Assembly: GCA_026397505.1 (NCBI GenBank)
Contig: JAPLUR010000047.1
Location: forward strand, 11,040 to 75,039
Direction of reading: 5' to 3'
DNA length: 64,000 nt
Source: Candidatus Zixiibacteriota bacterium
Lineage (GTDB): Bacteria; Zixibacteria; MSB-5A5; GN15; PGXB01
The number at the start of each line of letters is the position of its first letter. Position 1 is the first letter of the stretch. Shown one piece after another: positions 1,913 to 39,660 of the stretch. A program made the translations under genes and the position numbers. The notes below the pieces were generated by a model, which saw nothing but the letters and a program-made list of their open reading frames with translations, had not been told where the DNA came from and did not search any database.

Positions 1913-3616
1913 ATGCCTGACAATACCGGAGATTCTTTTCGAGAGACCTCCCAGCCCGAGGGAAGCAATGACCCTCTTGGGATTCTCGGCTGGGTAATCG
2001 GGGGTAAATACAAAATCCGCGCTTATATCGGCGGCGGAGGGTTTGGTGAGGTTTATGAGGGATTCAATGCCAATCTCCCCGAACAGCGTCTGGTCATAAA
2101 ATTCTTTAAGAGAGTACAATCACGGGATAAATTCGCCAAGGAAGCCAAAATTCTCTGCCTTCTGGACCATCCCAATATTCTCCGCGTGATCGATTATCTT
2201 CCAGAGGAAGGGGCTTTGATTGTCCCCTTTATCGATGGCCGTGACGGGGGGAAAACGCTTAAGGAATCAGGCCCCCTGCGGAAGGATCTCTATCTGCGGG
2301 TGGCGCGCACCATGACCGATGCTCTGGCGTATGCCCATGATAAGAAGATTGCGCATCGCGACCTTAAACCGGGGAATATTCTGATCGACAAAAATGAGCA
2401 TATTTTTCTGATCGATTTCGGTATTGCCAAAGAGATGGGCGGCTCGGCGACGAAAACGGCATATGTGGCGCTGACACCTCTCTTCGCGGCACCGGAAAGA
2501 CAACGCGGGGATCAGGACTATAATCCATTTCTGAGCGACATATATGAGATGGGTGTGACTCTGTTCAATTTTGCGACCAACGAGATGCCGTATCGCAATC
2601 CAAGCAATCCCAACTTTCAGGAATGGGGAGGCCCCGCGATAAAAAAGCTCTCGCCGCAATTGCGACGCATTCTCCGCAAAGCAACTCATCCCGACCCGGC
2701 CGAAAGGTACCAGACCGCGGCCCAGATGGCCGAAGAGTTTCGCAGTCTGGAACAGGTCTATGCCCATGCCTCCAAGCCGCGCTATCTGGCCATAGTTGGG
2801 GTGATCTTGCTGATCGCGGTGGCGGCCTTTGTCGCCAAACAGATGTTTACCGGCAGCGGTACGGAGCCGCAGGTTTCCCAGACAACCGCCCAGGAAAAGA
2901 CTAAAGAGGCTCCCAAAATTCCGCCGCCGGAAGAAAAACAGAAACAGGAAATCACGACCCCGGCAAAGAAGACTGAGACGCCTCCCGCGACAACCACCAA
3001 GACAGCGGAGGAGAAAGCCGTTCCGGTTGAAAAGCAGGAGGCGGCCAAAACTGAAACACCACCGGTTCCCCAGCTTCCCTCTCTGCTTGTGCATGTAAAT
3101 CCACAATATAATGTTTCGCTTTTTGTGGACGGCAAGGAACGCAGTCCCGATCGGCGTCTTGAGCTGACCGCAGGAAAACATGAAGTGAAAATTATTCACG
3201 CTGACTTCCCAATCGTGATTGATACTATTGATGTTACCGTTGACCGCAGCGCCGAGTACAATCTGACCGCCCGCTATACCGGAGCCCCCAGCGTCAATTT
3301 CCGCGTCGGCATTTCACCTTCGGAACTGGCCGACAATATCCTGCAGGTGTCCTTCAATGGCAAGAAGTATCAGTACAAAAACGAGGAACTGCCGATTCTG
3401 GACTTCCGCAAAATTGCCGGCACCTGGCAGTTCCGGTTTGATATCTTACCTTCCCGCGGGGGAACCGCGCCTCGAATAGATTCCATAGTCACCTTTCCAT
3501 ACGGCGACGGGCCGCAGGTGCGCTGGAAAGGGACCGGCAGCACAGTAAATTTCGGCGCCGGCGATTGGCGCGACATTGAATCAATAGATATGCTTTTATT
3601 CTGGTCAAATCGTTAA
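1913..3616 (+). CDS. Hanks-type serine/threonine protein kinase with TM segment, Pro/Thr/Lys-rich linker and extracytoplasmic C-terminal (PEGA-like) domain
   Basis: Kinase motifs GGGGFGEVYEG, HRDLKPGNILID, DFGIAKE and APE are present. A hydrophobic helix LAIVGVILLIAVAAFVA follows the catalytic domain. Confidence 0.9.
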   Translation: MPDNTGDSFRETSQPEGSNDPLGILGWVIGGKYKIRAYIGGGGFGEVYEGFNANLPEQRLVIKFFKRVQSRDKFAKEAKILCLLDHPNILRVIDYLPEEGALIVPFIDGRDGGKTLKESGPLRKDLYLRVARTMTDALAYAHDKKIAHRDLKPGNILIDKNEHIFLIDFGIAKEMGGSATKTAYVALTPLFAAPERQRGDQDYNPFLSDIYEMGVTLFNFATNEMPYRNPSNPNFQEWGGPAIKKLSPQLRRILRKATHPDPAERYQTAAQMAEEFRSLEQVYAHASKPRYLAIVGVILLIAVAAFVAKQMFTGSGTEPQVSQTTAQEKTKEAPKIPPPEEKQKQEITTPAKKTETPPATTTKTAEEKAVPVEKQEAAKTETPPVPQLPSLLVHVNPQYNVSLFVDGKERSPDRRLELTAGKHEVKIIHADFPIVIDTIDVTVDRSAEYNLTARYTGAPSVNFRVGISPSELADNILQVSFNGKKYQYKNEELPILDFRKIAGTWQFRFDILPSRGGTAPRIDSIVTFPYGDGPQVRWKGTGSTVNFGAGDWRDIESIDMLLFWSNR

Positions 3617-3640
3617 TTGAATCTTATCTCAGGAGGTTTA

Positions 3641-4327
3641 ATGCAAATCAGGATTCGCTATCTTCGCACGACCGCGTTGATGCTCCTTCTGGCTTACCTT
3701 CAGATGGTGTTTTTCCCCATGTGGGGCTTCGCCCAGACGCCCAATTGCGGCTATGACAGTAAAACGCCAACGCTGGAGCACGCACGCAAGAATTTCAAAG
3801 GCCTCAACTATAGGTGCGCTGAGGCGGAGTTGAATGACCTGCTCGGACTCCCGGAACTGAGCCTGGAAGACAAATCGAATGCGCATATTCTTCTGGCCGC
3901 GGTTTACTACGCCATGCTCAAGGACGACTCGGAAAAGCGCAGTATGGTCATGCAGCAGTTTAAGGCGGCTTTCAAGGCTTACCGCGAGTGGCGGGGTGAG
4001 TTGGATATCAAGTCGCCCGAGTTTGTGGAGATGATGAAAGAGGCCCAGCTTGAGGTAGATACTGAAGCGATTGCAACTCCGCCCACGACCACCGAGCCGG
4101 AAAAGCCGGCCGAGGATACAACCAAAGCCAAGCCGGCGCCGCCTGTTATCGCCGAAACCAAAGCAGCCAAGACCGGCGGTAAAGCGTGGTATAAGCAATG
4201 GTGGGCCATTGGGCTGGGTATCGGTGTAGTTGCCGGGGCCGTTGTTCTTCTCGCAGGAGGCGGCGGCGAAACTACTAAGCCTTTGGACACGCTGCCGACG
4301 TTTCCAAATCCGCCCTCAAAAAGGTGA
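3641..4327 (+). CDS. membrane-anchored hypothetical protein (N-terminal signal/TM, helical domain, PT-rich linker, C-terminal TM)
   Basis: AGGAGG RBS lies 5 nt before the ATG at 3641. The start abuts the kinase stop. C-terminal TM WWAIGLGIGVVAGAVVLLAGGGG. Confidence 0.6.
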   Translation: MQIRIRYLRTTALMLLLAYLQMVFFPMWGFAQTPNCGYDSKTPTLEHARKNFKGLNYRCAEAELNDLLGLPELSLEDKSNAHILLAAVYYAMLKDDSEKRSMVMQQFKAAFKAYREWRGELDIKSPEFVEMMKEAQLEVDTEAIATPPTTTEPEKPAEDTTKAKPAPPVIAETKAAKTGGKAWYKQWWAIGLGIGVVAGAVVLLAGGGGETTKPLDTLPTFPNPPSKR

Positions 4328-4401
4328 TTGGAGAAGGCGAAATGAAATCGGACAGATATCAACGAAATATGCCATATCCCCCAAGGAAAAGGAGTACAAG
4401 A

Positions 4402-5667
4402 ATGAACAGAAAATTCTTTATGGTTTTGGCGGCCATGCTGGCTATCGTGTTTGCTTTGAGTTTTAACGCCGCCGCACAGGTGCCGAATACGATCATGTAT
4501 CAGGGAAGATTAACCGATGCCGCTGGGGCGCCGATTTCCACGGCCACATCGGTTGTGTTTTCAATTTATGCAACCATAGGCGCTGACACCCCGGTCTGGA
4601 CCGAGACCATAGCTGATGTTGCTCCTGATGTTCAAGGGGTGTTTACCGTTGAACTGGGACTTGTGACACCCCTGCCGGCCAATCTTTTTGACGGCACCAA
4701 GAAATATCTGGGCATAAAAGTCGGTGCCGACACCGAAATGAACCCGCGCCAGGTTTTGACCTCCGGGCCGTATTCGCTGAACGCAAATATTGGTGATGGA
4801 ACGGTCACGACCGCTAAGATCGCCAATGGAGCGGTGCTCGACACCAAATTGGGGACCGGTTCGGTGATCGAGTCCAAGATCGCCAACTATGCGGTGACCA
4901 CATTAAAGATACTCGACGGCGCCGTAACGTCGGGGAAGATTGCGGATGGAGCCATAAACAGCGCCAAAATAGCCGACTTGAGTGTTGCCACCATCGACAT
5001 TGCCGACAATGCCATAAATAGTGCCAAAGTGGCTGATGGATCGATCACGACCGCCAAGATTGCGGATGGCACGGTAACCAGCGCCAAAATCGCCGATCTC
5101 AGCATCGGCACAATCGATATTGCAGACAATGCTATAACGGGGGCCAAAGTGGCTAATAGCTCACTCGACCATGGTGATATTGGCGACGAAGCGGGTATTA
5201 GTAGCATTTATGATGGCACCGATAACTCGCTGACAGGTACTGTAGCAGCCGTGGATTCGGTGTCAATCACCTGTCCATCAGGCGGCTACCTTGTGATAGA
5301 AGCAGCGGGGTTTCTCCAAACCTATCATACATTGAACGCCGGCGCGTTTGCACTTCGTGTTTGCCTGTCAACTACTCGGGCATCCATGGATTACACAAAT
5401 TTCGTCTTATATGAAATACCTACTGGTTCTGCGACAGGAACCTATAACGTGCCCTTCACACTATTAATGACAAGCGTTGTTTCGGCAGGTTCTTATAAGT
5501 ACTATCTTAATGCAGATGCTTTTTCAGGTGCGGGATATGTGGCCAGTGGCTCAACCGGTCGGATTCATATCGTGGCGACATATTATCCTTCTGCTTATGG
5601 CAGTGTTGCCAGCACAAATTCACCGGCACCCTTGAAACCAGGAAACTCTGACGGTTCCACCGAGTAA
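4402..5667 (+). CDS. secreted protein with about 11-residue 'xAKIADGAVTS' tandem repeats (fibre/beta-helix-like repeat protein)
   Basis: Signal peptide MNRKFFMVLAAMLAIVFALSFNAAAQ. At least 12 consecutive 11-aa repeats (TAKIANGAVLD/ SKIANYAVTTL/ GKIADGAINSA/ AKIADGTVTSA...). AAGGAG RBS. Overlaps the upstream gene by 4 nt. Confidence 0.75.
   Translation: MNRKFFMVLAAMLAIVFALSFNAAAQVPNTIMYQGRLTDAAGAPISTATSVVFSIYATIGADTPVWTETIADVAPDVQGVFTVELGLVTPLPANLFDGTKKYLGIKVGADTEMNPRQVLTSGPYSLNANIGDGTVTTAKIANGAVLDTKLGTGSVIESKIANYAVTTLKILDGAVTSGKIADGAINSAKIADLSVATIDIADNAINSAKVADGSITTAKIADGTVTSAKIADLSIGTIDIADNAITGAKVANSSLDHGDIGDEAGISSIYDGTDNSLTGTVAAVDSVSITCPSGGYLVIEAAGFLQTYHTLNAGAFALRVCLSTTRASMDYTNFVLYEIPTGSATGTYNVPFTLLMTSVVSAGSYKYYLNADAFSGAGYVASGSTGRIHIVATYYPSAYGSVASTNSPAPLKPGNSDGSTE
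4807..5180 (+). repeat. 33-bp (11-codon) tandem repeats inside CDS 4402..5667, with a 99-bp higher-order repeat
   Basis: Recurrent aaaatcgccgatgg[ca]gc[cg]gt... units. nt 4960-5040 resembles 5080-5160. Confidence 0.8.
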
Positions 5668-5688
5668 CCTGAAAGAAGGGAAGGTCCA

Positions 5689-7578
5689 ATGAAAGTGCCA
5701 AATAAAGCCATGGCGCTGGTGCTCTGCCTGCTCTTTCTTTCCGGCAGTGTATGGGCACAGACTAGCGCCAATTATATATTGCAGGTTGGCGGGCCGGTGG
5801 GTGGTGGCGGCAGTGCCGGCAGCAGCGGGTATAATGTAACCGGCGATGTCCCATTAAGTGCCTCGGGCGGCTCCGGTTCGAGTAATTATACGATTGTGGG
5901 AGGAATTCTCGGCGCCGCATACCGTGGCGCGGCCTCCTTTTCGGCCATGTACACAGGCAGTGATGAGGAAACCGTTAACATTGCCGCTCGGACTTTGAAA
6001 GTAGCTTACAGCGGTGGTACCGGTGCAGTCGCGGGCGTATTTTATTATCGTCTGGGCGGTGATGAGTCTTATTCCAGCGCCGGTATGACAGCAGGTACCG
6101 GGGACACCATGCTTTACATCCTGCCGGCCAACTCTCTTACTATCCGCGGTCTGGAGTACTATTTCGAACTGACGCGCAATTCTATTATGGTGTCGCTCCG
6201 ACATCCAATAGCCCCATATGTCTTTATCACCCGGTTTGATAATACCGTGGGAAAAAGGCCGACCGCTATGCCGAACGCCCAATATCGAATTATCGGGGTT
6301 CCGATCGGCTTTTCAACGCGGCAGTCGGTTGATGATGTTTTCCTCGATGATCTCGGCGCCGCCGACAAGAAACAATGGCGGCTGGCCAACTATGACAATA
6401 CGACCGGGACATATCTGGAGTATCCCGATGCATCTATTGTCACTCCCACCCGGGGATACTGGCTGATTGCCCGGGGCGGTAAGAAATACGGCGCCGCCGG
6501 ATTCTCTATGCGGCCGAATACGTCTCTTCCTATCCCCGGTGGAATCGGCTGCTACGAAGTGGCGGTAGACTCCGGCTGGAACCTTGTGGCCAATCCTTTT
6601 CCATTCAATATCAGTTGGGCAGATGTACGGTTTAAGGATAATGATGTTCTGCAGGATGGCCATCCCGCATCAGTTCTTGATGATTTCGCATACTGGTATT
6701 CGGGAACGGCTTATAGTAATGTCGCCACAATTCCGGCATGGGATGGGTTTTTCGTGAAAATCAACAAACGCAACATCAAAATTCTATTCCCATATCGCGT
6801 AAGCGGTATTACTCTGATTGACAAACTATTTGCGGGCATGCCATCGGCCGGGGGAACCGCCGGGGCATGGGATATCCAGTTGCAGTTGGCTGTCGGGGAT
6901 CGTCTGGATGACTGCAATTTTGCCGGAGTAAGAGGTGATGCCTCAACGGGGCCAGACGTATATGATTATTCCGAACCGCCGCCTGCGCCTGAAGGTCCGA
7001 TGCTTGCCTTCCGCCTCCCGGACGGCGATAAAGGTTTGCACCGTGCTGATTATCGCGCCCCGTTCAGTGACGGCGCGACCTGGGATATTACCATGCTGCC
7101 GATGCCGGGGCGTGTCCTGACCCCCGGCGGACTAGGACAGATTCCGGAAGGTATGGAGGCATGGCTGGTTTTGGACAACGGAGCCAAATATAAATTGACC
7201 GAGGGTGACGCGATAGGCATCCCCGATGGAGTAAAGTCGGGCCGGTTGCTGGTTGGAACGGAGAAATATCTCGACGAAGAGGACTCTATTTTGATTCCTT
7301 ATAATTATGCCCTTTTCCAGAATTTCCCCAATCCGTTCAACCCGTCGACAAGTATCAGATTCGCTCTGCCGAAAAGCGGTAAGGTCAGACTGGAGGTTTT
7401 TAATCTCCTTGGCCAGAAAGTGAAAACTTTGATTGACGGCGAACTCGAGGCCGGGTATCACAGCGTTTTGTGGGATGGTAACGATAGTCACGGCAAAGCG
7501 GCAGCCACCGGCGTATATTTCTATAAGATGACCGCCGGCGCTTTTTCCGAGAATCGCAAGATGCTGCTTCTGAAATAG
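5689..7578 (+). CDS. secreted protein with T9SS (Por) C-terminal sorting domain
   Basis: Signal peptide MKVPNKAMALVLCLLFLSGSVWAQ. C-terminus FQNFPNPFNPSTSIRFALPKSGKVRLEVFNLLGQKV...GVYFYKMTAGAFSENRKMLLLK matches the T9SS type-A CTD consensus. Confidence 0.85.
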   Translation: MKVPNKAMALVLCLLFLSGSVWAQTSANYILQVGGPVGGGGSAGSSGYNVTGDVPLSASGGSGSSNYTIVGGILGAAYRGAASFSAMYTGSDEETVNIAARTLKVAYSGGTGAVAGVFYYRLGGDESYSSAGMTAGTGDTMLYILPANSLTIRGLEYYFELTRNSIMVSLRHPIAPYVFITRFDNTVGKRPTAMPNAQYRIIGVPIGFSTRQSVDDVFLDDLGAADKKQWRLANYDNTTGTYLEYPDASIVTPTRGYWLIARGGKKYGAAGFSMRPNTSLPIPGGIGCYEVAVDSGWNLVANPFPFNISWADVRFKDNDVLQDGHPASVLDDFAYWYSGTAYSNVATIPAWDGFFVKINKRNIKILFPYRVSGITLIDKLFAGMPSAGGTAGAWDIQLQLAVGDRLDDCNFAGVRGDASTGPDVYDYSEPPPAPEGPMLAFRLPDGDKGLHRADYRAPFSDGATWDITMLPMPGRVLTPGGLGQIPEGMEAWLVLDNGAKYKLTEGDAIGIPDGVKSGRLLVGTEKYLDEEDSILIPYNYALFQNFPNPFNPSTSIRFALPKSGKVRLEVFNLLGQKVKTLIDGELEAGYHSVLWDGNDSHGKAAATGVYFYKMTAGAFSENRKMLLLK

Positions 7579-7627
7579 CGATAAACTGTCTCAGGCCCTG
7601 CATGGTCTTAAGGATTCGGATTACTGA

Positions 7628-7660
7628 AGGGATCGATCATCGGATCGGTCCCTTTCTTTA
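7628..7660 (+). terminator. rho-independent terminator candidate after the T9SS cargo gene
   Basis: Stem AGGGATCGATC..GATCGGTCCCT followed by TTCTTTA. Confidence 0.55.
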
Positions 7661-7754
7661 TGGGTAAGTTTACTCTTGAGAAAACAGAATTGCCTTCGTA
7701 TAATAATGTTGATCTGATTTTAAGGAATTTCGCAGATATGCATGGAGCGAATTA

Positions 7755-10157: not shown

Positions 10158-11341
10158 ATGGCCATTCCCAGGGAATCAACCGGTAAATCACTCAGTTGGC
10201 GTTTTATCTTAAGGGCACTGAAGTACCGCAATTACCGTCTCTTTTTCGGCGGCCAGGGGATTTCTCTCATAGGAACATGGATGCAGCGGCTGGCGGTCAG
10301 TTGGCTGATTTACCGCCTCACCGGCTCTCCGTTCCTTCTGGGGATCGCCGGTTTTGCCAGCCAGATACCGACTTTCATTCTGGCCCCGGTGGCCGGAGTG
10401 GTCGCCGATAGATACAACCGGATGCGGATTCTCATCCTGACCCAGACATTGGCGATGTTTCAGGCTCTGATATTGGCGGTCCTGGTTCTTACCAATGCCG
10501 TTGAGGTTTGGCATATTATTGCCTTAAGCCTTGCCCTGGGGGTCATCAATGCCTTTGATATGCCCGCGCGGCAGTCACTGGTGGTGGAGATGATTGAAAA
10601 TCGTGAGGATCTGGGGAACGCCATTGCTCTGAATTCTTCTATGTTCAACGGCGCCCGCCTGATCGGGCCGTCACTGGGCGGGATACTCATTGCGACGGTT
10701 GGCGAAGGGATTTGTTTTCTAATCAATGGACTCAGTTTTATTGCCGTGATCATTGCTCTTCTCTACATGAAGATTAACGCCCATCCTGCAGAGAATAAAG
10801 GGACACGTTTTTTGCAAGGGCTTAAGGAGGGGTTCGTATACGCGTTCGGCTTCCTGCCGATTCGTTCCATACTACTGCTCCTGTCCCTGGTCAGTTTGAT
10901 GGGGATGCAGTATGCGGTGCTGATGCCGATTTTCGCCAAAGATATTCTTCACGGCGGCCCCAACACGCTGGGATGCTGCCGATCGGCTTTGGCCTGATGG
11001 TGCAGATGGCGGCAAGCAATACGGTGTTGCAGACCATTGTCGATGATGACAAGCGCGGCCGTTTGATGAGCATTTACGCCATGGCCTTCATGGGCGTCAC
11101 GCCGCTGGGTAGCCTTCTGGCGGGAAGCATGGCCAGCCATTTCGGCGCCCCGGCCACCCTGATTGTGGGAGGGGCGGTCTGTATTTTGGGGGCGGCGGCT
11201 TTTGCCCGAGAACTGCCGCGTATCAGGAAACAGATTCGCCCGATTTACCAGAGAAAAGGGATTCTCCCTCTGACAATACCAATCAATGAATCGATTGGGG
11301 GGATGCCGGCCCAGCCGGGGCCGGGGGAAAGACCGATATAA
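10158..11341 (+). pseudogene. MFS transporter interrupted by a -1 frameshift near 10970 (two ORFs, 10158..10997 and 10973..11341)
   Basis: The N-terminal ORF ends ...ILHGGPNTLGCCRSALA*. The next frame continues MLPIGFGLMVQMAASNTV..., the expected MFS C-terminal half. The join LG|MLPIGFG needs one extra base in 'ctggga'. Confidence 0.7.
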
Positions 11342-37120: not shown

Positions 37121-39316
37121 CTATTTTAGAAGCAGCATTTTGCGGGTCTCAGAAAATTCACCCGCTACAATTCTATAAAGATAGATGCCTGTTGAGACCG
37201 ACTGACCGTCCTTGCTTCGACCGTTCCAAACAACTTGATAAGTACCGGGCGAAAACTCATGGTCAACCAATCTGGCTATTTCGGCACCCAGCAGGTTATA
37301 AACTGCAACGGTGACATGAGATCTTTGGGGAACAGCGAATCCAATTGTTGTGGCCGGGTTGAACGGATTTGGATGGTTCTGAAACAGTGCGAAATCCTCA
37401 GGCAATTTGCCGGTGTATATATCAGATATGTCTGTGTAGGTGTTCGGGCCCGACCAGCCACTGGGGCCACAAGCGTTGAAGGATCTAACACGCCACCACA
37501 AATCGCCGCCTGGCACAGTGAGTTGTACGCTGCAAGAGCTGATAGTTGTGTCCTTCCACAAGTGCAGAAAGCTTGAAGCACTAGTATCTATCTGGAGACT
37601 GTAACCAGAGGCTTGTGAGACACACTGCCAGATGAACGATAAGACGACAGGACCGTGTGCGCCACTGCTTGGAATCATGCTTCCGGGATTCGGATTTGCC
37701 GGAATCGTGATGATCGTCACGCAAATCTGGTTGCTGAGGTTGCTTGCCCCACAGCTGTTTTTCGCCAGAACATAGTAGCAGTAAGATCCCCCTGAGGCCT
37801 TAGTATAGCATCGCTGCGTTACGTTACCAATGTCCGTCCAGCCGCCACCATTCTCCTGAATCTCGTAACTGGTCGCACCCGCAACCGCACCCCACGATAT
37901 ACAATACTGAACATTCGTACACCCGGACGCAGGCCCCGTAATGAACGGTGGCAGAGGAACAGGATCCACCGTCACGCAATGCTGGTTACTGGAATTACTT
38001 TGTCCACAGCTGTTTTTCGCCCGAACATAGTAGCAATAAGATCCCCCTGAGGCCTTAGTATAGCATCGCTGCGTTACGTTACCAATGTCCGTCCAGCCTC
38101 CACCATTCTCCTGAATCTCGTAACTGGTCGCACCCGCAACCGCACCCCACGATATACAATACTGAACATTCGTACACCCGGACGCAGGCCCCGTGATGAC
38201 CGGCGGAATAGGAGGGGGCAAGGGGGAACAACATGACTGCGACGATTTGCTGGAATTGTAGTAACAGCCGTATTGAGCATCAACCTGATAGCAGTGCGAC
38301 CCGCCGGAGTAGTCATTGTATGGCGGACTGAATGTACCTAAGGTTCCGCCGTCCCGGTAGAGGGTATAGCCAGTCGCTCCGGTGACCGTATTCCAATTAA
38401 TGCTCACATAACCACATTGCGGAGTACAACTGACTATGGGAACATCTTTTGTATATTCCGCAACATACGTGGCTCCCTGACTCGCAGAGATATCGATCCA
38501 CTGGTCCATGGTAAGGAGGTTACAGACATCCCACCAACCTAGAAACGTCCTTCCCAAGGCGGGGTTTGAAGCTGCTATCCTGACCGATGCACCTTGGCTA
38601 TAGCGAAAAGTGGCAGGTGTGTAACCGCCGGATTTTCCATCAGCGTCGGATGGAGTTACGAAGACGTACACGCCATTCTCTGGTACACTGATTACACTAA
38701 AAGTAACATTTTGGGGAGGAGTAGTCACCACAACCAATGTCTCTGGGAATGATGACGATTGCCTTGATCTCAACTCGGCGATGCCCGTGGTATATTCGGT
38801 TATCGGTCTAATCTCGAAGCCATTGTTGCTTTGGCTACCAGTTACCCAGTTCTTGATGTCATAGAAGTTTGGCGCGTCGACTTGTATGTCGCTCCATCCC
38901 GGTAAAAGCGTTGACTGGCCGAGTACTACGGAAGCGCTAGGCTGATTATTCCAGGTTATGGTATATTCGTCCCACGCAGCCGAGACCAAGAGAATATAGG
39001 ATGACTGGTTGGGATTCGACCCTGCATTGTAAATCTTCAATCTGGCATCTGTTATATATGGTGCTTCTCCTGAAGGAATTACTGACAGATCGAATTTTAA
39101 GAACGATCGCAGCCGACCATTATTGACATCGTAGCCCACAAGAAGGGCGATACCACCACCATCATTGGTATTGGGGTATTTGATGGAAACATCGGCGTCA
39201 GCGACCGACAAAAGCCTGTAAGTTGTCGCGTGCACCTGCATTGTCAATCCAGGCAAAAACAGGAAACTTACAAGAACCAAGAGACCAATTTTGGTCGAAC
39301 GTGAACAACATTGCAT
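37121..39316 (-). CDS. secreted FN3-like repeat protein with T9SS C-terminal sorting domain
   Basis: GGAG RBS before the ATG at 39316. Signal peptide. Two near-identical 85-aa repeats. C-terminus FQNHPNPFNPATTIGFAVP...GIYLYRIVAGEFSETRKMLLLK. Confidence 0.8.
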   Translation of the reverse strand: MQCCSRSTKIGLLVLVSFLFLPGLTMQVHATTYRLLSVADADVSIKYPNTNDGGGIALLVGYDVNNGRLRSFLKFDLSVIPSGEAPYITDARLKIYNAGSNPNQSSYILLVSAAWDEYTITWNNQPSASVVLGQSTLLPGWSDIQVDAPNFYDIKNWVTGSQSNNGFEIRPITEYTTGIAELRSRQSSSFPETLVVVTTPPQNVTFSVISVPENGVYVFVTPSDADGKSGGYTPATFRYSQGASVRIAASNPALGRTFLGWWDVCNLLTMDQWIDISASQGATYVAEYTKDVPIVSCTPQCGYVSINWNTVTGATGYTLYRDGGTLGTFSPPYNDYSGGSHCYQVDAQYGCYYNSSKSSQSCCSPLPPPIPPVITGPASGCTNVQYCISWGAVAGATSYEIQENGGGWTDIGNVTQRCYTKASGGSYCYYVRAKNSCGQSNSSNQHCVTVDPVPLPPFITGPASGCTNVQYCISWGAVAGATSYEIQENGGGWTDIGNVTQRCYTKASGGSYCYYVLAKNSCGASNLSNQICVTIITIPANPNPGSMIPSSGAHGPVVLSFIWQCVSQASGYSLQIDTSASSFLHLWKDTTISSCSVQLTVPGGDLWWRVRSFNACGPSGWSGPNTYTDISDIYTGKLPEDFALFQNHPNPFNPATTIGFAVPQRSHVTVAVYNLLGAEIARLVDHEFSPGTYQVVWNGRSKDGQSVSTGIYLYRIVAGEFSETRKMLLLK
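37750..38195 (-). repeat. near-identical about 255-bp tandem duplication inside T9SS cargo gene (two 85-aa FN3-like modules)
   Basis: About 190-nt blocks from 37750 and from 38003 are identical except a handful of substitutions. Confidence 0.85.
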
Positions 39317-39660
39317 TTGACTCTCCTTTCCAACGTGCTCCAAACCATGACACGTTACCTTATGCCAATGACATTCCGATATTAGGTTCGTAGACGCCAT
39401 ATATACCGTTCAGCATTGGGCTATTCTGTTAACAGATTGTGAGATGTTATCTACAAGTCAGGCTTAAAGACCCCGAGATCGGAAACGGATTCATCTTGCA
39501 GTTTCATCCCGGTTCGTTTAAACATATCCTCTGAACTGTCTAAGTTAGGCCGCGCTTTGCCTAATGTCAAGCGCTTTTCGATATAATTCTCTCCTTATCC
39601 TGAGTGTTTCTGTCTTGATTCGCTCCCGTTGCTCCAGGATTTAGGTTGATCAGTATGAAT

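What the first reader, a model, noticed from the sequence alone, without database searches (positions are those of the whole stretch)
1913..7578. Tightly coupled operon: Ser/Thr kinase, membrane protein, 11-residue-repeat fibre-like protein, T9SS cargo
Four same-strand genes run with abutting or overlapping stops and starts (3616/3617; 4327/4324; 5667/5689). They link a eukaryotic-type kinase that has an extracytoplasmic sensor domain to two secreted proteins, one of which carries a T9SS sorting domain. A dedicated kinase co-transcribed with T9SS cargo and a fibre-like repeat protein is not a described module. It could be a signalling-coupled surface-structure or adhesin system.
Basis: partly seen in the sequence, partly recalled or inferred. 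Interest (0 to 1): 0.55.

Follow-up and report, generated by a model that had tools for sequence, protein, structure and literature searches.

The report
Kinase-linked adhesive fibre operon in Zixibacteria
An uncultured Zixibacteria genome carries a conserved four-gene operon joining a membrane Ser/Thr kinase and a small membrane protein to a fibre with a swappable tip, related to the prey-binding fibres of Bdellovibrio, and to a surface protein carrying a type IX secretion tag; this combination has not been described and suggests what such fibres dock to.

Summary
The four same-strand genes are real, in a candidate division Zixibacteria MAG. Two details were wrong. The "abutting/overlapping" junctions come from longest-ORF calls; the likely starts (3641, 4402, 5689) leave gaps of 24, 74 and 21 nt. 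The repeat period is 10 residues, not 11.

The gene order kinase, small membrane protein (p2), fibre, cargo is kept in every orthologous locus with enough upstream DNA. One genome is an exception, with a decayed copy. The order holds down to 33% cargo identity while the flanking genes change.

- **Fibre:** a MAT-type (mosaic adhesive trimer) fibre. Its N-terminal domain is homologous to that of Bdellovibrio MATs. The decapeptide shaft is shared with phage tail fibres. The tip is TNF/C1q-like.
- **Tip variation:** between near-identical strains (kinase 99.5% identical) the tip is only 27% identical. A discrete cassette has been replaced.
- **Cargo:** a stack of Ig-like domains with a genuine T9SS type-A C-terminal domain and no enzyme fold.
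- **Kinase:** catalytically complete, with one membrane span and an orphan C-terminal domain.

Fibre plus cargo is the conserved core. Kinase plus p2 is a usual but dispensable add-on.

Proposed mechanism (inferred): a variable adhesin docked to, or exported with, a constant T9SS-delivered partner, and monitored by an envelope-spanning kinase. I rate it a new variant of known kinds, of moderate interest.

The parts
1913..3616 (+). Hanks-type Ser/Thr kinase, 567 aa. Kinase domain at about 2009-2728. Single membrane span at 2774-2857. P/T/E/K-rich linker at 2858-3112. Lineage-specific beta-rich C-terminal domain at 3113-3613.
   Evidence: Pfam Pkinase 6e-38. Catalytic motifs, hydrophobic span and linker composition. 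The C-terminal domain is conserved in 11 orthologues (motif VDSxVTFPYGGGP). It has no PDB, Pfam or NCBIfam match.
3641..4327 (+). p2, a 228-aa orphan membrane protein. It has an N-terminal signal-like segment, a conserved domain with two invariant Cys, an A/T/P/K/E-rich linker, a C-terminal membrane span (4196-4267) and a short LPxFPxPP tail. The longest ORF starts at 3617.
   Evidence: Shine-Dalgarno AGGAGG before ATG 3641. 119 homologues of about 210-260 aa, none with a Pfam domain; all that carry an organism name are Zixibacteria. Alignments. No Pfam, NCBIfam, PHROGs, PADLOC or PDB match.
4402..5667 (+). MAT-type fibre, 421 aa. Signal peptide 4402-4476. Conserved N-terminal base domain 4477-4776. 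Shaft of about 13 decapeptide repeats 4789-5187. TNF/C1q-like tip 5188-5601.
   Evidence: NCBI gene call identical (P0001). 10-aa period. hhalign of the N-domain against Bdellovibrio MAT N-termini gives probability 94.4%, E 9e-8. NF053851 is hit by 14 of 15 operon fibres, all below its cut-off. AF2 pLDDT is above 90 for the N-domain and about 90 for the tip. Foldseek matches TNF-like lectins and phage receptor-binding proteins. The shaft hits PHROG tail-fibre families.
4936..5154 (+). 120-nt tandem duplication (four decapeptide repeats) inside the shaft.
   Evidence: TRF reports period 120, 1.8 copies, 78% matches. Both window copies align to one copy in L002.
5040..5763 (+). Replaced (hypervariable) cassette: the distal shaft, the tip, the intergenic spacer and the first 25 codons of the cargo gene.
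   Evidence: Against L002, DNA is 97% identical over 1949-5039 and 92% over 5764-7745. Between them only the duplicated shaft unit (5056-5160) aligns, and nothing aligns from 5161 to 5763. Against L001, DNA is 85% identical to 4820 and identity resumes at 5764. Tip identity is 27% while the kinase is 99.5% and p2 99% identical.
5689..7578 (+). Cargo, a 629-aa surface protein. Signal peptide 5689-5757. Conserved but disordered G/S-rich segment 5758-5931. Stack of Ig-like beta-sandwich domains 5932-7293. T9SS type-A C-terminal domain 7324-7575.
7628..7660 (+). Intrinsic-terminator-like hairpin (11-bp stem, 4-nt loop) followed by UUUCUUU. This is the likely 3' end of the operon.
   Evidence: RNA fold of 7579-7680: MFE -33.3 kcal/mol, z -2.3. 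A near-consensus promoter for the next gene, an Nramp transporter, lies at 7676-7704.

Best explanation
This is a conserved Zixibacteria operon for a cell-surface fibre system with its own envelope kinase.

Shown:
- Gene 3 encodes a MAT-family fibre. It has a Sec signal and a constant N-terminal 'base' domain homologous to that of Bdellovibrio mosaic adhesive trimers. It also has a decapeptide-repeat shaft of variable length and a TNF/C1q-like tip that is exchanged as a cassette between near-identical strains.
- Gene 4 encodes a constant protein made only of Ig-like domains, ending in a T9SS type-A sorting domain.
- Gene 1 encodes a catalytically complete single-pass Ser/Thr kinase.
- Gene 2 encodes an orphan membrane protein. 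Both it and the kinase carry long Pro/Thr/Glu/Lys-rich linkers next to their membrane spans.

Inferred:
- The fibre is a trimeric adhesin whose tip binds a variable external ligand, possibly a glycan.
- The T9SS-tagged protein is carried to the outer surface and serves as the dock, or co-export partner, for the fibre's constant base. It does not co-vary with the tip.
- The kinase and p2 reach across the periplasm through their extended linkers. They report the assembly or engagement state of the fibre-partner complex to the cytoplasm by phosphorylation.

Fibre plus partner is the core. Kinase plus p2 is a regulatory add-on that some lineages lack.
For: - **Synteny with tight spacing in many loci:**. 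At least 20 contigs appear to carry p2 and cargo together, judged by matching contig lengths.
- **Changing flanks:** upstream genes are DUF4412, PAAR or VWA; downstream genes are Nramp/Usp, amino-oxidase or a kinase-TPR protein.
- **Core pair without kinase:** the fibre+cargo pair persists in L170/171, L004 and L123. L128 also has the pair, with a kinase downstream rather than upstream.
- **Kinase enrichment:** a same-strand kinase is more frequent near distant cargo-like genes, 7/63 against 1/73 control loci, p=0.025. L160 has a kinase, p2-like genes and cargo-like genes without a fibre.
- **MAT homology:**. The shaft repeats are shared with Bdellovibrio MATs and with phage tail fibres.
- **Tip fold:** TNF-like, matching trimeric lectins and phage receptor-binding proteins.
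- **Cassette replacement:** tip 27% identical against kinase 99.5%. The mature cargo is 98-100% identical over most of its length, with a more divergent middle section (82-90% per 50-aa block).
- **Cargo fold:** Ig-like domains plus a CTD only.
- **Kinase:** motifs and topology.
- **Literature:** Caulton et al. 2024 state that the MAT N-domain 'would presumably tightly bind a surface element', which is still unidentified (PMC10769870).
Against: - No transcript data.
- No test of any protein-protein contact.
- T9SS machinery genes were not looked for in this genome, and none lies in the window.
- The MAT-N-like domain is far more widespread than the cargo family. It is found in 23,934 clusters, against about 70 full-length cargo orthologues plus distant relatives. 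A universal anchor role for this cargo is therefore impossible; at best it is lineage-specific.
- Fibre homologues also occur alone (L003).
- Export of a CTD-less fibre together with a T9SS cargo has no established precedent (my own knowledge).
- The kinase substrate is unknown. The Thr residues in the p2 tail are not conserved.
- The trimeric state is inferred from the fold and the family, not predicted directly.
Confidence: 0.5

Rival explanations
1. Only fibre+cargo form a functional unit. The kinase and p2 are an unrelated envelope-signalling pair, for example for cell-wall or stress signalling, that happens to sit upstream in one Zixibacteria clade.
For: Fibre+cargo occur without kinase/p2 in L170/171, L004 and L123, and as a decayed pair in L167. 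Hanks kinases are common in these phyla. No domain of the kinase or p2 resembles the fibre or the cargo (hhalign).
Against: The order and the short gaps are kept down to 33% cargo identity while both flanks change. p2 homologues appear to share contigs with the cargo in at least 20 cases, judged by matching contig lengths. Kinase and p2-like genes also sit next to distant cargo-like genes that lack fibres (L160, L006).
Confidence: 0.2
2. The downstream T9SS-tagged protein is a tip-specific assembly chaperone or tip adhesin, like the phage Tfa or gp38 proteins encoded after tail-fibre genes. It is not a base anchor.
For: It sits immediately downstream of the fibre gene, 10-21 nt away or overlapping. 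The fibre shaft and tip have phage relatives.
Against: The mature cargo stays 98-100% identical over most of its length while the tip drops to 27% identity. Only the cargo signal-peptide codons lie in the replaced cassette. One cargo family is paired with at least three unrelated tip classes.
Confidence: 0.1
3. It is a remnant of a prophage or tailocin (a tail-fibre module), or an anti-phage defence island built around a kinase.
For: PHROG tail-fibre hits reach 2e-31. The kinase domain matches PADLOC PD-T4-6 and mad6 models.
Against: The PHROG hits cover only the repeat shaft (aa 128-262). The N-domain, p2 and cargo have no PHROG or PADLOC hit. The kinase matches are at domain level only and far below the family cut-offs (NF047741: 131.6 bits against 460). 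The neighbours are housekeeping genes, and Nramp and Usp are shared with a complete genome. All three exported proteins carry Sec signals.
Confidence: 0.04

Closest known systems
Bdellovibrio bacteriovorus MAT (mosaic adhesive trimer) fibres, NS74 subgroup (Caulton et al. 2024, PMC10769870)
   Same: A signal peptide is followed by a conserved beta-rich N-terminal domain (hhalign 94.4%). The I-A-D-x-x-[IV]-T-x-A-K decapeptide shaft is shared. The C-terminal tip folds independently and is swappable. There is no S74 chaperone domain.
   Different: It comes from a different phylum that is not known to be predatory. It is shorter: 287-507 aa in the operon fibres against 616-670 aa in the Bdellovibrio homologues retrieved here. 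It scores below the NF053851 cut-off (30 bits against 60). It sits in a fixed operon with a T9SS-tagged protein, a Ser/Thr kinase and an orphan membrane protein, none of which is described for Bdellovibrio MATs. Bdellovibrio also lies outside the phyla reported to have T9SS (PMC11285876).
T9SS type-A cargo proteins of Bacteroidota (for example P. gingivalis PPAD and T. forsythia mirolase) and T9SS-delivered surface adhesins such as SprB and RemA (the last two from my own knowledge)
   Different: There is no catalytic or known adhesive domain. The family is essentially restricted to Zixibacteria, with 22-30% identical relatives in loci labelled Calditrichia, Ignavibacteria and Neomarinimicrobiota. 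It is genetically paired with a fibre that lacks a CTD. Secretion has not been demonstrated.
Phage tail fibres and receptor-binding proteins with C1q/TNF-like heads (for example the lactococcal phage 1358 RBP), and Bacillus exosporium BclA-type filaments anchored through their N-termini to BxpB/ExsF (the anchoring from my own knowledge)
   Same: The layout is repeat shaft plus trimeric jelly-roll head. There are Foldseek hits to 4rgg/4l92, 8d02 and 9h3d and to phage C1q-domain fibres. The shaft matches PHROG tail-fibre families. The logic of a filament held to a surface protein by its N-terminus is the same.
   Different: This is a cellular, Sec-exported protein in a chromosomal operon. Its N-terminal domain is not found in the phage families searched. 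There are no collagen repeats.
Transmembrane Hanks kinases with extracytoplasmic sensor domains (PknB/Stk1 type)
   Same: The topology is the same: cytoplasmic kinase, one membrane span and an outside domain. The best NCBIfam hit is NF033483.
   Different: There are no PASTA repeats, and the score is 155.8 bits against a cut-off of 450. The outside part is an 85-aa P/T/E/K linker plus an orphan 170-aa beta-rich domain.

Membership tests
MAT (mosaic adhesive trimer) fibre family | Signal peptide directly followed by the conserved ~130-aa beta-rich N-terminal domain | tested here: met
   Profile-profile alignment of 17 N-domains against 4 Bdellovibrio MAT N-termini gives probability 94.4% and E 9e-8 over the whole domain. 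AF2 predicts a beta-sandwich at aa 28-120 with pLDDT above 90.
MAT (mosaic adhesive trimer) fibre family | Score above the curated cut-off of NCBIfam NF053851 (Bdello_MAT_N, 60 bits) | tested here: not met
   The score is 30.1 bits, E 3.6e-7, covering profile positions 3-76 of 162. 14 of 15 operon fibres hit the model, all below its cut-off. It is therefore outside the Bdellovibrio subfamily model, although homologous.
MAT (mosaic adhesive trimer) fibre family | Variable, mosaic C-terminal tip on a constant base | tested here: met
   At least three tip classes occur among the operon fibres. The tip is 27% identical between strains whose N-domain is 92% identical. The cassette has discrete boundaries.
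MAT (mosaic adhesive trimer) fibre family | Homotrimeric fibre displayed on the cell surface | not testable with these tools
   Only a monomer could be predicted. The shaft pLDDT is 55-74. The TNF/C1q-like tip fold is typically trimeric. Surface display needs experiment.
T9SS type-A cargo | C-terminal type-A sorting domain | tested here: met
T9SS type-A cargo | T9SS machinery (SprA/Sov, PorV, PorU, GldKLMN) encoded in the same genome | not tested
   None is among the window ORFs scanned. The literature lists T9SS genes in several FCB phyla but does not mention Zixibacteria (PMC11285876).
Hanks-type Ser/Thr protein kinase | Pkinase domain above the gathering score, with intact catalytic motifs | tested here: met
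   PF00069 scores 131.2 bits against 31.7. G-loop, VIK, HRDLKPGN, DFG and APE are all present.
PASTA kinase (PknB/Stk1, NF033483) | Extracellular PASTA repeats and a score above the cut-off (450 bits) | tested here: not met
   The score is 155.8 bits, from the kinase domain only. There is no PASTA hit in Pfam.
Phage tail fibre or prophage module | Tail-fibre protein within a block of phage structural genes | tested here: not met
   Only the shaft repeats match PHROG tail-fibre families. The neighbours are cellular genes.
Kinase-based anti-phage systems (PD-T4-6, MADS, BREX PglW) | Full-length match and the system's partner genes | tested here: not met
   The matches are confined to the kinase domain. 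NF047741 scores 131.6 against 460, and NF033442 scores 62 against 990. The other three proteins have no meaningful PADLOC hit.

The most novel reading that the evidence does not exclude
The T9SS-tagged Ig-domain protein is the missing cell-surface dock or export vehicle for the conserved N-terminal domain of MAT-type fibres in this lineage. Its conserved, disordered G/S-rich N-terminus carries three S-x-x-Y motifs, which could engage the three chains of the fibre base. The kinase and p2 would then form an envelope-spanning 'touch sensor' that converts fibre assembly or engagement into Ser/Thr phosphorylation. That would be a contact-sensing organelle of a kind not described in bacteria, possibly used for cell-cell recognition such as epibiosis or predation in Zixibacteria.
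Probability: 0.18. Interest if true: 0.8.

Novelty: new variant of a known kind. Interest (0 to 1): 0.55.

Why it matters
MAT fibres were defined in one predator, Bdellovibrio bacteriovorus HD100. How their constant N-terminal domain is held on the cell is an open question stated by their discoverers (PMC10769870).

This work shows three things.
- **Spread of the N-domain:** the domain is very widespread in environmental bacteria, with 23,934 clusters at 50% identity.
- **Fixed partners:** in one phylum it has fixed genetic partners, namely a T9SS-tagged Ig-domain protein, a transmembrane Ser/Thr kinase and an orphan membrane protein.
- **Tip exchange:** the tip is exchanged as a cassette between strains that are otherwise about 97% identical.

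This gives a concrete, testable candidate for the fibre's surface partner. It is also a natural example of receptor-binding-tip swapping outside phages and Bdellovibrio, and a possible link between Ser/Thr signalling and a T9SS-dependent surface structure. If the kinase coupling is real, it would be an unusual way for a diderm bacterium to sense what its surface fibres touch.

Tried and rejected
- **Exact-sequence look-up of the cargo:** not on record.
- **Genome-collection scan with the full cargo alignment:** swamped by generic T9SS CTD motifs (QNYPNPFN and similar). It returned mostly unrelated CTD proteins. I reused these as a control set. I then repeated the search on metagenomes with the CTD trimmed off.
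- **PDB sequence or profile searches:** nothing significant for the fibre, the cargo body, the kinase C-terminal domain or p2.
- **Rfam:** no RNA family in the window.
- **hhalign of the kinase C-terminal domain or p2 against the cargo or the fibre N-domain:** no relationship.
- **The Thr-rich p2 tail as the conserved kinase substrate:** rejected. The Thr residues are not conserved; only LPxFPxPP is.
- **The cargo as a tip-specific chaperone:** rejected as the leading model, because the cargo does not co-vary with the tip.
- **L097 and L101 as counter-examples to synteny:** rejected. They are 1280-1290 aa paralogues behind an ECF sigma/anti-sigma pair, not orthologues.
- **Prophage or defence-island reading:** rejected.
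- **A diversity-generating retroelement as the cause of tip variation:** not specifically searched. The pattern is whole-cassette replacement with loss of all DNA similarity, which does not look like targeted A-to-N mutagenesis.

Full report
**Observation**

The window holds four + strand ORFs at the stated coordinates. The organism is a candidate division Zixibacteria MAG. The fibre and the cargo are 100% identical to NCBI proteins from a 75-kb contig (P0001 and P0121).

Two descriptive points need correction.

- **Junctions.** The abutting or overlapping junctions are artefacts of longest-ORF calling.
  - ATG 3641 follows an AGGAGG and gives the 221-229 aa length seen in homologues.
  - ATG 4402 follows GGAG and is the deposited gene call of 421 aa.
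  - The gaps are therefore 24, 74 and 21 nt.
- **Repeat period.** The repeat unit is a decapeptide, not 11 residues. Identity autocorrelation is 0.38-0.52 at lags 10, 20, 30 and 40 against 0.03 at lag 11. There are about 13 copies.

No terminator or promoter signal above shuffled expectation lies between the genes. An 11-bp hairpin followed by UUUCUUU sits at 7628-7660. A near-consensus promoter for the unrelated Nramp gene follows it.

**The four proteins**

1. **Kinase (567 aa).** It has a Pkinase domain with G-loop, VIK, HRDLKPGN, DFG and APE motifs. It has one hydrophobic span at aa 288-315. An 85-aa linker follows, made of T, P, E and K. The C-terminal domain is about 170 aa and is conserved among orthologues. 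That domain matches nothing in Pfam, NCBIfam or the PDB.

2. **p2 (228 aa).** It has an N-terminal signal-like segment and a conserved domain with two nearly invariant Cys. An A/T/P/K/E-rich linker follows, then a C-terminal membrane span and an LPxFPxPP tail. There are 119 homologues. None has a Pfam domain, and every one that carries an organism name is Zixibacteria.

3. **Fibre (421 aa).** It has a signal peptide, a conserved N-terminal domain, a decapeptide shaft and a globular tip.
   - The N-domain hits NCBIfam NF053851 (Bdello_MAT_N) in 14 of 15 operon fibres, always below its cut-off.
   - A profile-profile comparison with four Bdellovibrio MAT N-termini gives probability 94.4% and E 9e-8 over the whole domain.
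   - The shaft repeats are the same kind as in Bdellovibrio MAT proteins and in phage tail-fibre families.
   - AF2 gives confident models for the N-domain and the tip.
   - The tip is a TNF/C1q-like jelly roll. It matches trimeric TNF-like lectins (PLTL, BC2L-C), phage receptor-binding proteins, BxpB/ExsF and Bdellovibrio Bd1399, as well as phage C1q-type fibres.
   - Caulton et al. 2024 describe exactly this layout. They state that the partner of the N-domain on the cell surface is unknown.
   - The N-domain alone finds 23,934 clusters (5,790 at E ≤ 1e-10) among 1.84 billion representatives, almost always right after a signal peptide.

4. **Cargo (629 aa).** It has a signal peptide and a conserved but disordered G/S-rich segment with three S-x-x-Y motifs. 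Ig-like beta-sandwich domains follow, then a T9SS type-A CTD.
   - TIGR04183 is above its cut-off.
   - About 70 full-length homologues at 40-51% identity were found. Nearly all named ones are Zixibacteria; one carries a Patescibacteria group label.
   - Relatives at 22-30% identity occur in loci labelled Calditrichia, Ignavibacteria and Neomarinimicrobiota and in unlabelled metagenome contigs.

**Synteny**

I used tblastn and HMMs built from the orthologues.

- Every cargo orthologue of about 620 aa with at least 1.3 kb of upstream sequence has a MAT-type fibre directly upstream.
- Every orthologue with at least 4 kb upstream has kinase-p2-fibre-cargo. These are L087, L091/L106, L098, L102, HGW-Zixibacteria-1 (L164/165), the 3.5-Mb genome LS998015.1 (L166) and L168/169, where the cargo is only 33% identical.
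- The single exception is CP070766.1 (L167). There, only a 129-aa tip remnant precedes the cargo.
- Flanking genes differ between loci, so the four genes move as a unit.
- L170/171 (32% identity) keep only fibre+cargo.
- In more distant lineages fibre and cargo-like genes are adjacent in L004, L123 and L128.
- Kinase and p2-like genes accompany cargo-like genes without a fibre in L160 and L006.
- A same-strand Hanks kinase lies within 10 kb of 7/63 distant cargo-like loci, against 1/73 control loci chosen only by CTD (p=0.025).

The picture is a two-tier module. Fibre+cargo is the core, and kinase+p2 is a frequent companion.

**Tip swapping**

- Against L002, DNA is 97% identical up to 5039 and 92% identical from 5764 onward. 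Between them only the duplicated shaft unit (5056-5160) aligns.
- Against L001, similarity stops at 4820 and resumes at the same point, 5764.
- At protein level against L002: kinase 99.5%, p2 99%, fibre N-domain 92%, tip 27%. The cargo is 64% identical over its first 50 aa and 98-100% over most of the rest, with a more divergent middle section of 82-90%.
- Shaft copy number varies: about 13 in the window, 9 in L002, 6 in L001 and 0 in L166. The window carries a fresh 120-nt duplication.
- At least three unrelated tip classes occur on the same base.

The cargo does not co-vary with the tip. If it touches the fibre at all, it touches the constant part.

**Mechanism**

Shown: the operon architecture, the family assignments, the cassette replacement and the intact catalytic motifs.

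Inferred:
- The fibre is a trimeric adhesin whose TNF-like tip binds a variable external ligand.
- The CTD protein is exported by T9SS and acts as the dock or co-export partner for the fibre base.
- The kinase and p2, with their extended P/T/E/K linkers next to their membrane spans, reach across the periplasm and report on the complex.

Main weaknesses:
- There are no transcript or interaction data.
- T9SS machinery has not been verified in Zixibacteria. The papers found list other FCB phyla only.
- The N-domain is far more widespread than this cargo family, so any anchor role is lineage-specific.

**Rivals**

- The kinase and p2 are unrelated neighbours (0.2).
- The cargo is a tip chaperone (0.1; contradicted by the lack of co-variation).
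- The cluster is a prophage or defence remnant (0.04; contradicted).

**Novelty and score**

Each part belongs to a known kind: Hanks kinase, MAT fibre, T9SS type-A cargo. The fixed combination, its restriction to Zixibacteria, and the orphan p2 and kinase C-terminal domains are not described in the literature I could search.

I rate it a new variant of a known kind, with interest 0.55. It offers a testable candidate for the unidentified MAT surface partner and a clear natural case of tip-cassette exchange. Its function remains inferred.

Noticed in passing
window 4936-5154: A 120-nt tandem duplication (four decapeptide repeats) lies in the fibre shaft. Both copies align to a single copy in the near-identical strain L002, so shaft length changes by unit duplication.
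   Followed up: yes
window 5758-5931 (cargo aa 24-81): This G/S-rich segment is predicted disordered (pLDDT about 33) yet is conserved across 33 orthologues. It carries three S-x-x-Y...G motifs and an invariant GGGG. Three motifs opposite a presumed trimeric fibre base is suggestive but untested.
   Followed up: partly
window 10158-10997 and 10973-11341: An MFS_3 transporter gene appears split into two overlapping ORFs in different frames. This is a frameshift, a pseudogene or an assembly error.
   Followed up: no
window 37121-39400 (-): A second protein in the window has a FlgD_ig/T9SS-CTD-like C-terminus, here joined to a CBM96 carbohydrate-binding module. It shows that CTD-type proteins recur in this genome.
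   Followed up: no
L164 9691-10308 and 10233-10703 (HGW-Zixibacteria-1, PGXB01000001.1): The operon fibre is split by a frameshift between the shaft and the TNF-like tip. It is annotated as two small genes of 196 and 66 aa. This is a pseudogene, an assembly error or a slippage site in the repeats.
   Followed up: partly
L160 754-14791: A distant lineage carries a cluster with a 776-aa Hanks kinase whose C-terminus weakly matches the kinase C-terminal HMM (E 1e-4). The cluster also has two p2-like genes that hit the HMM, a third recognised by eye, and three large cargo-like proteins, but no MAT fibre. The kinase/p2/cargo-like link may therefore be older than the fibre link.
   Followed up: partly
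L097 6376-10245; L101 7877-11722: The cargo-like module is fused into proteins of 1280-1290 aa. These lie directly downstream of an ECF sigma factor, an anti-sigma factor and membrane proteins. A paralogue thus appears to be under a different, sigma-factor-based, envelope signalling arrangement.
   Followed up: partly
proteins P0335, P0355, P0365, P0397: Some representatives carry three or four copies of the MAT-N-like domain, at internal positions in proteins of 780-1540 aa. The 'base' domain is therefore not always N-terminal or single.
   Followed up: no
L164 1-6736 and L166 1-5947 (- strand): In two genomes a PAAR-motif protein, an 1160-1181 aa protein, a protein of about 410 aa and a DcrB-domain protein lie divergently upstream of the operon. 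This neighbouring cluster is conserved in those two genomes but is not seen next to the window's copy.
   Followed up: no
L003 and L167 (CP070766.1): The same Zixibacteria genome has a stand-alone MAT-type fibre next to Lon protease and a TonB-dependent receptor. It also has a decayed operon copy, with only a tip remnant before the cargo. Both regions contain masked runs of N in the collection.
   Followed up: partly
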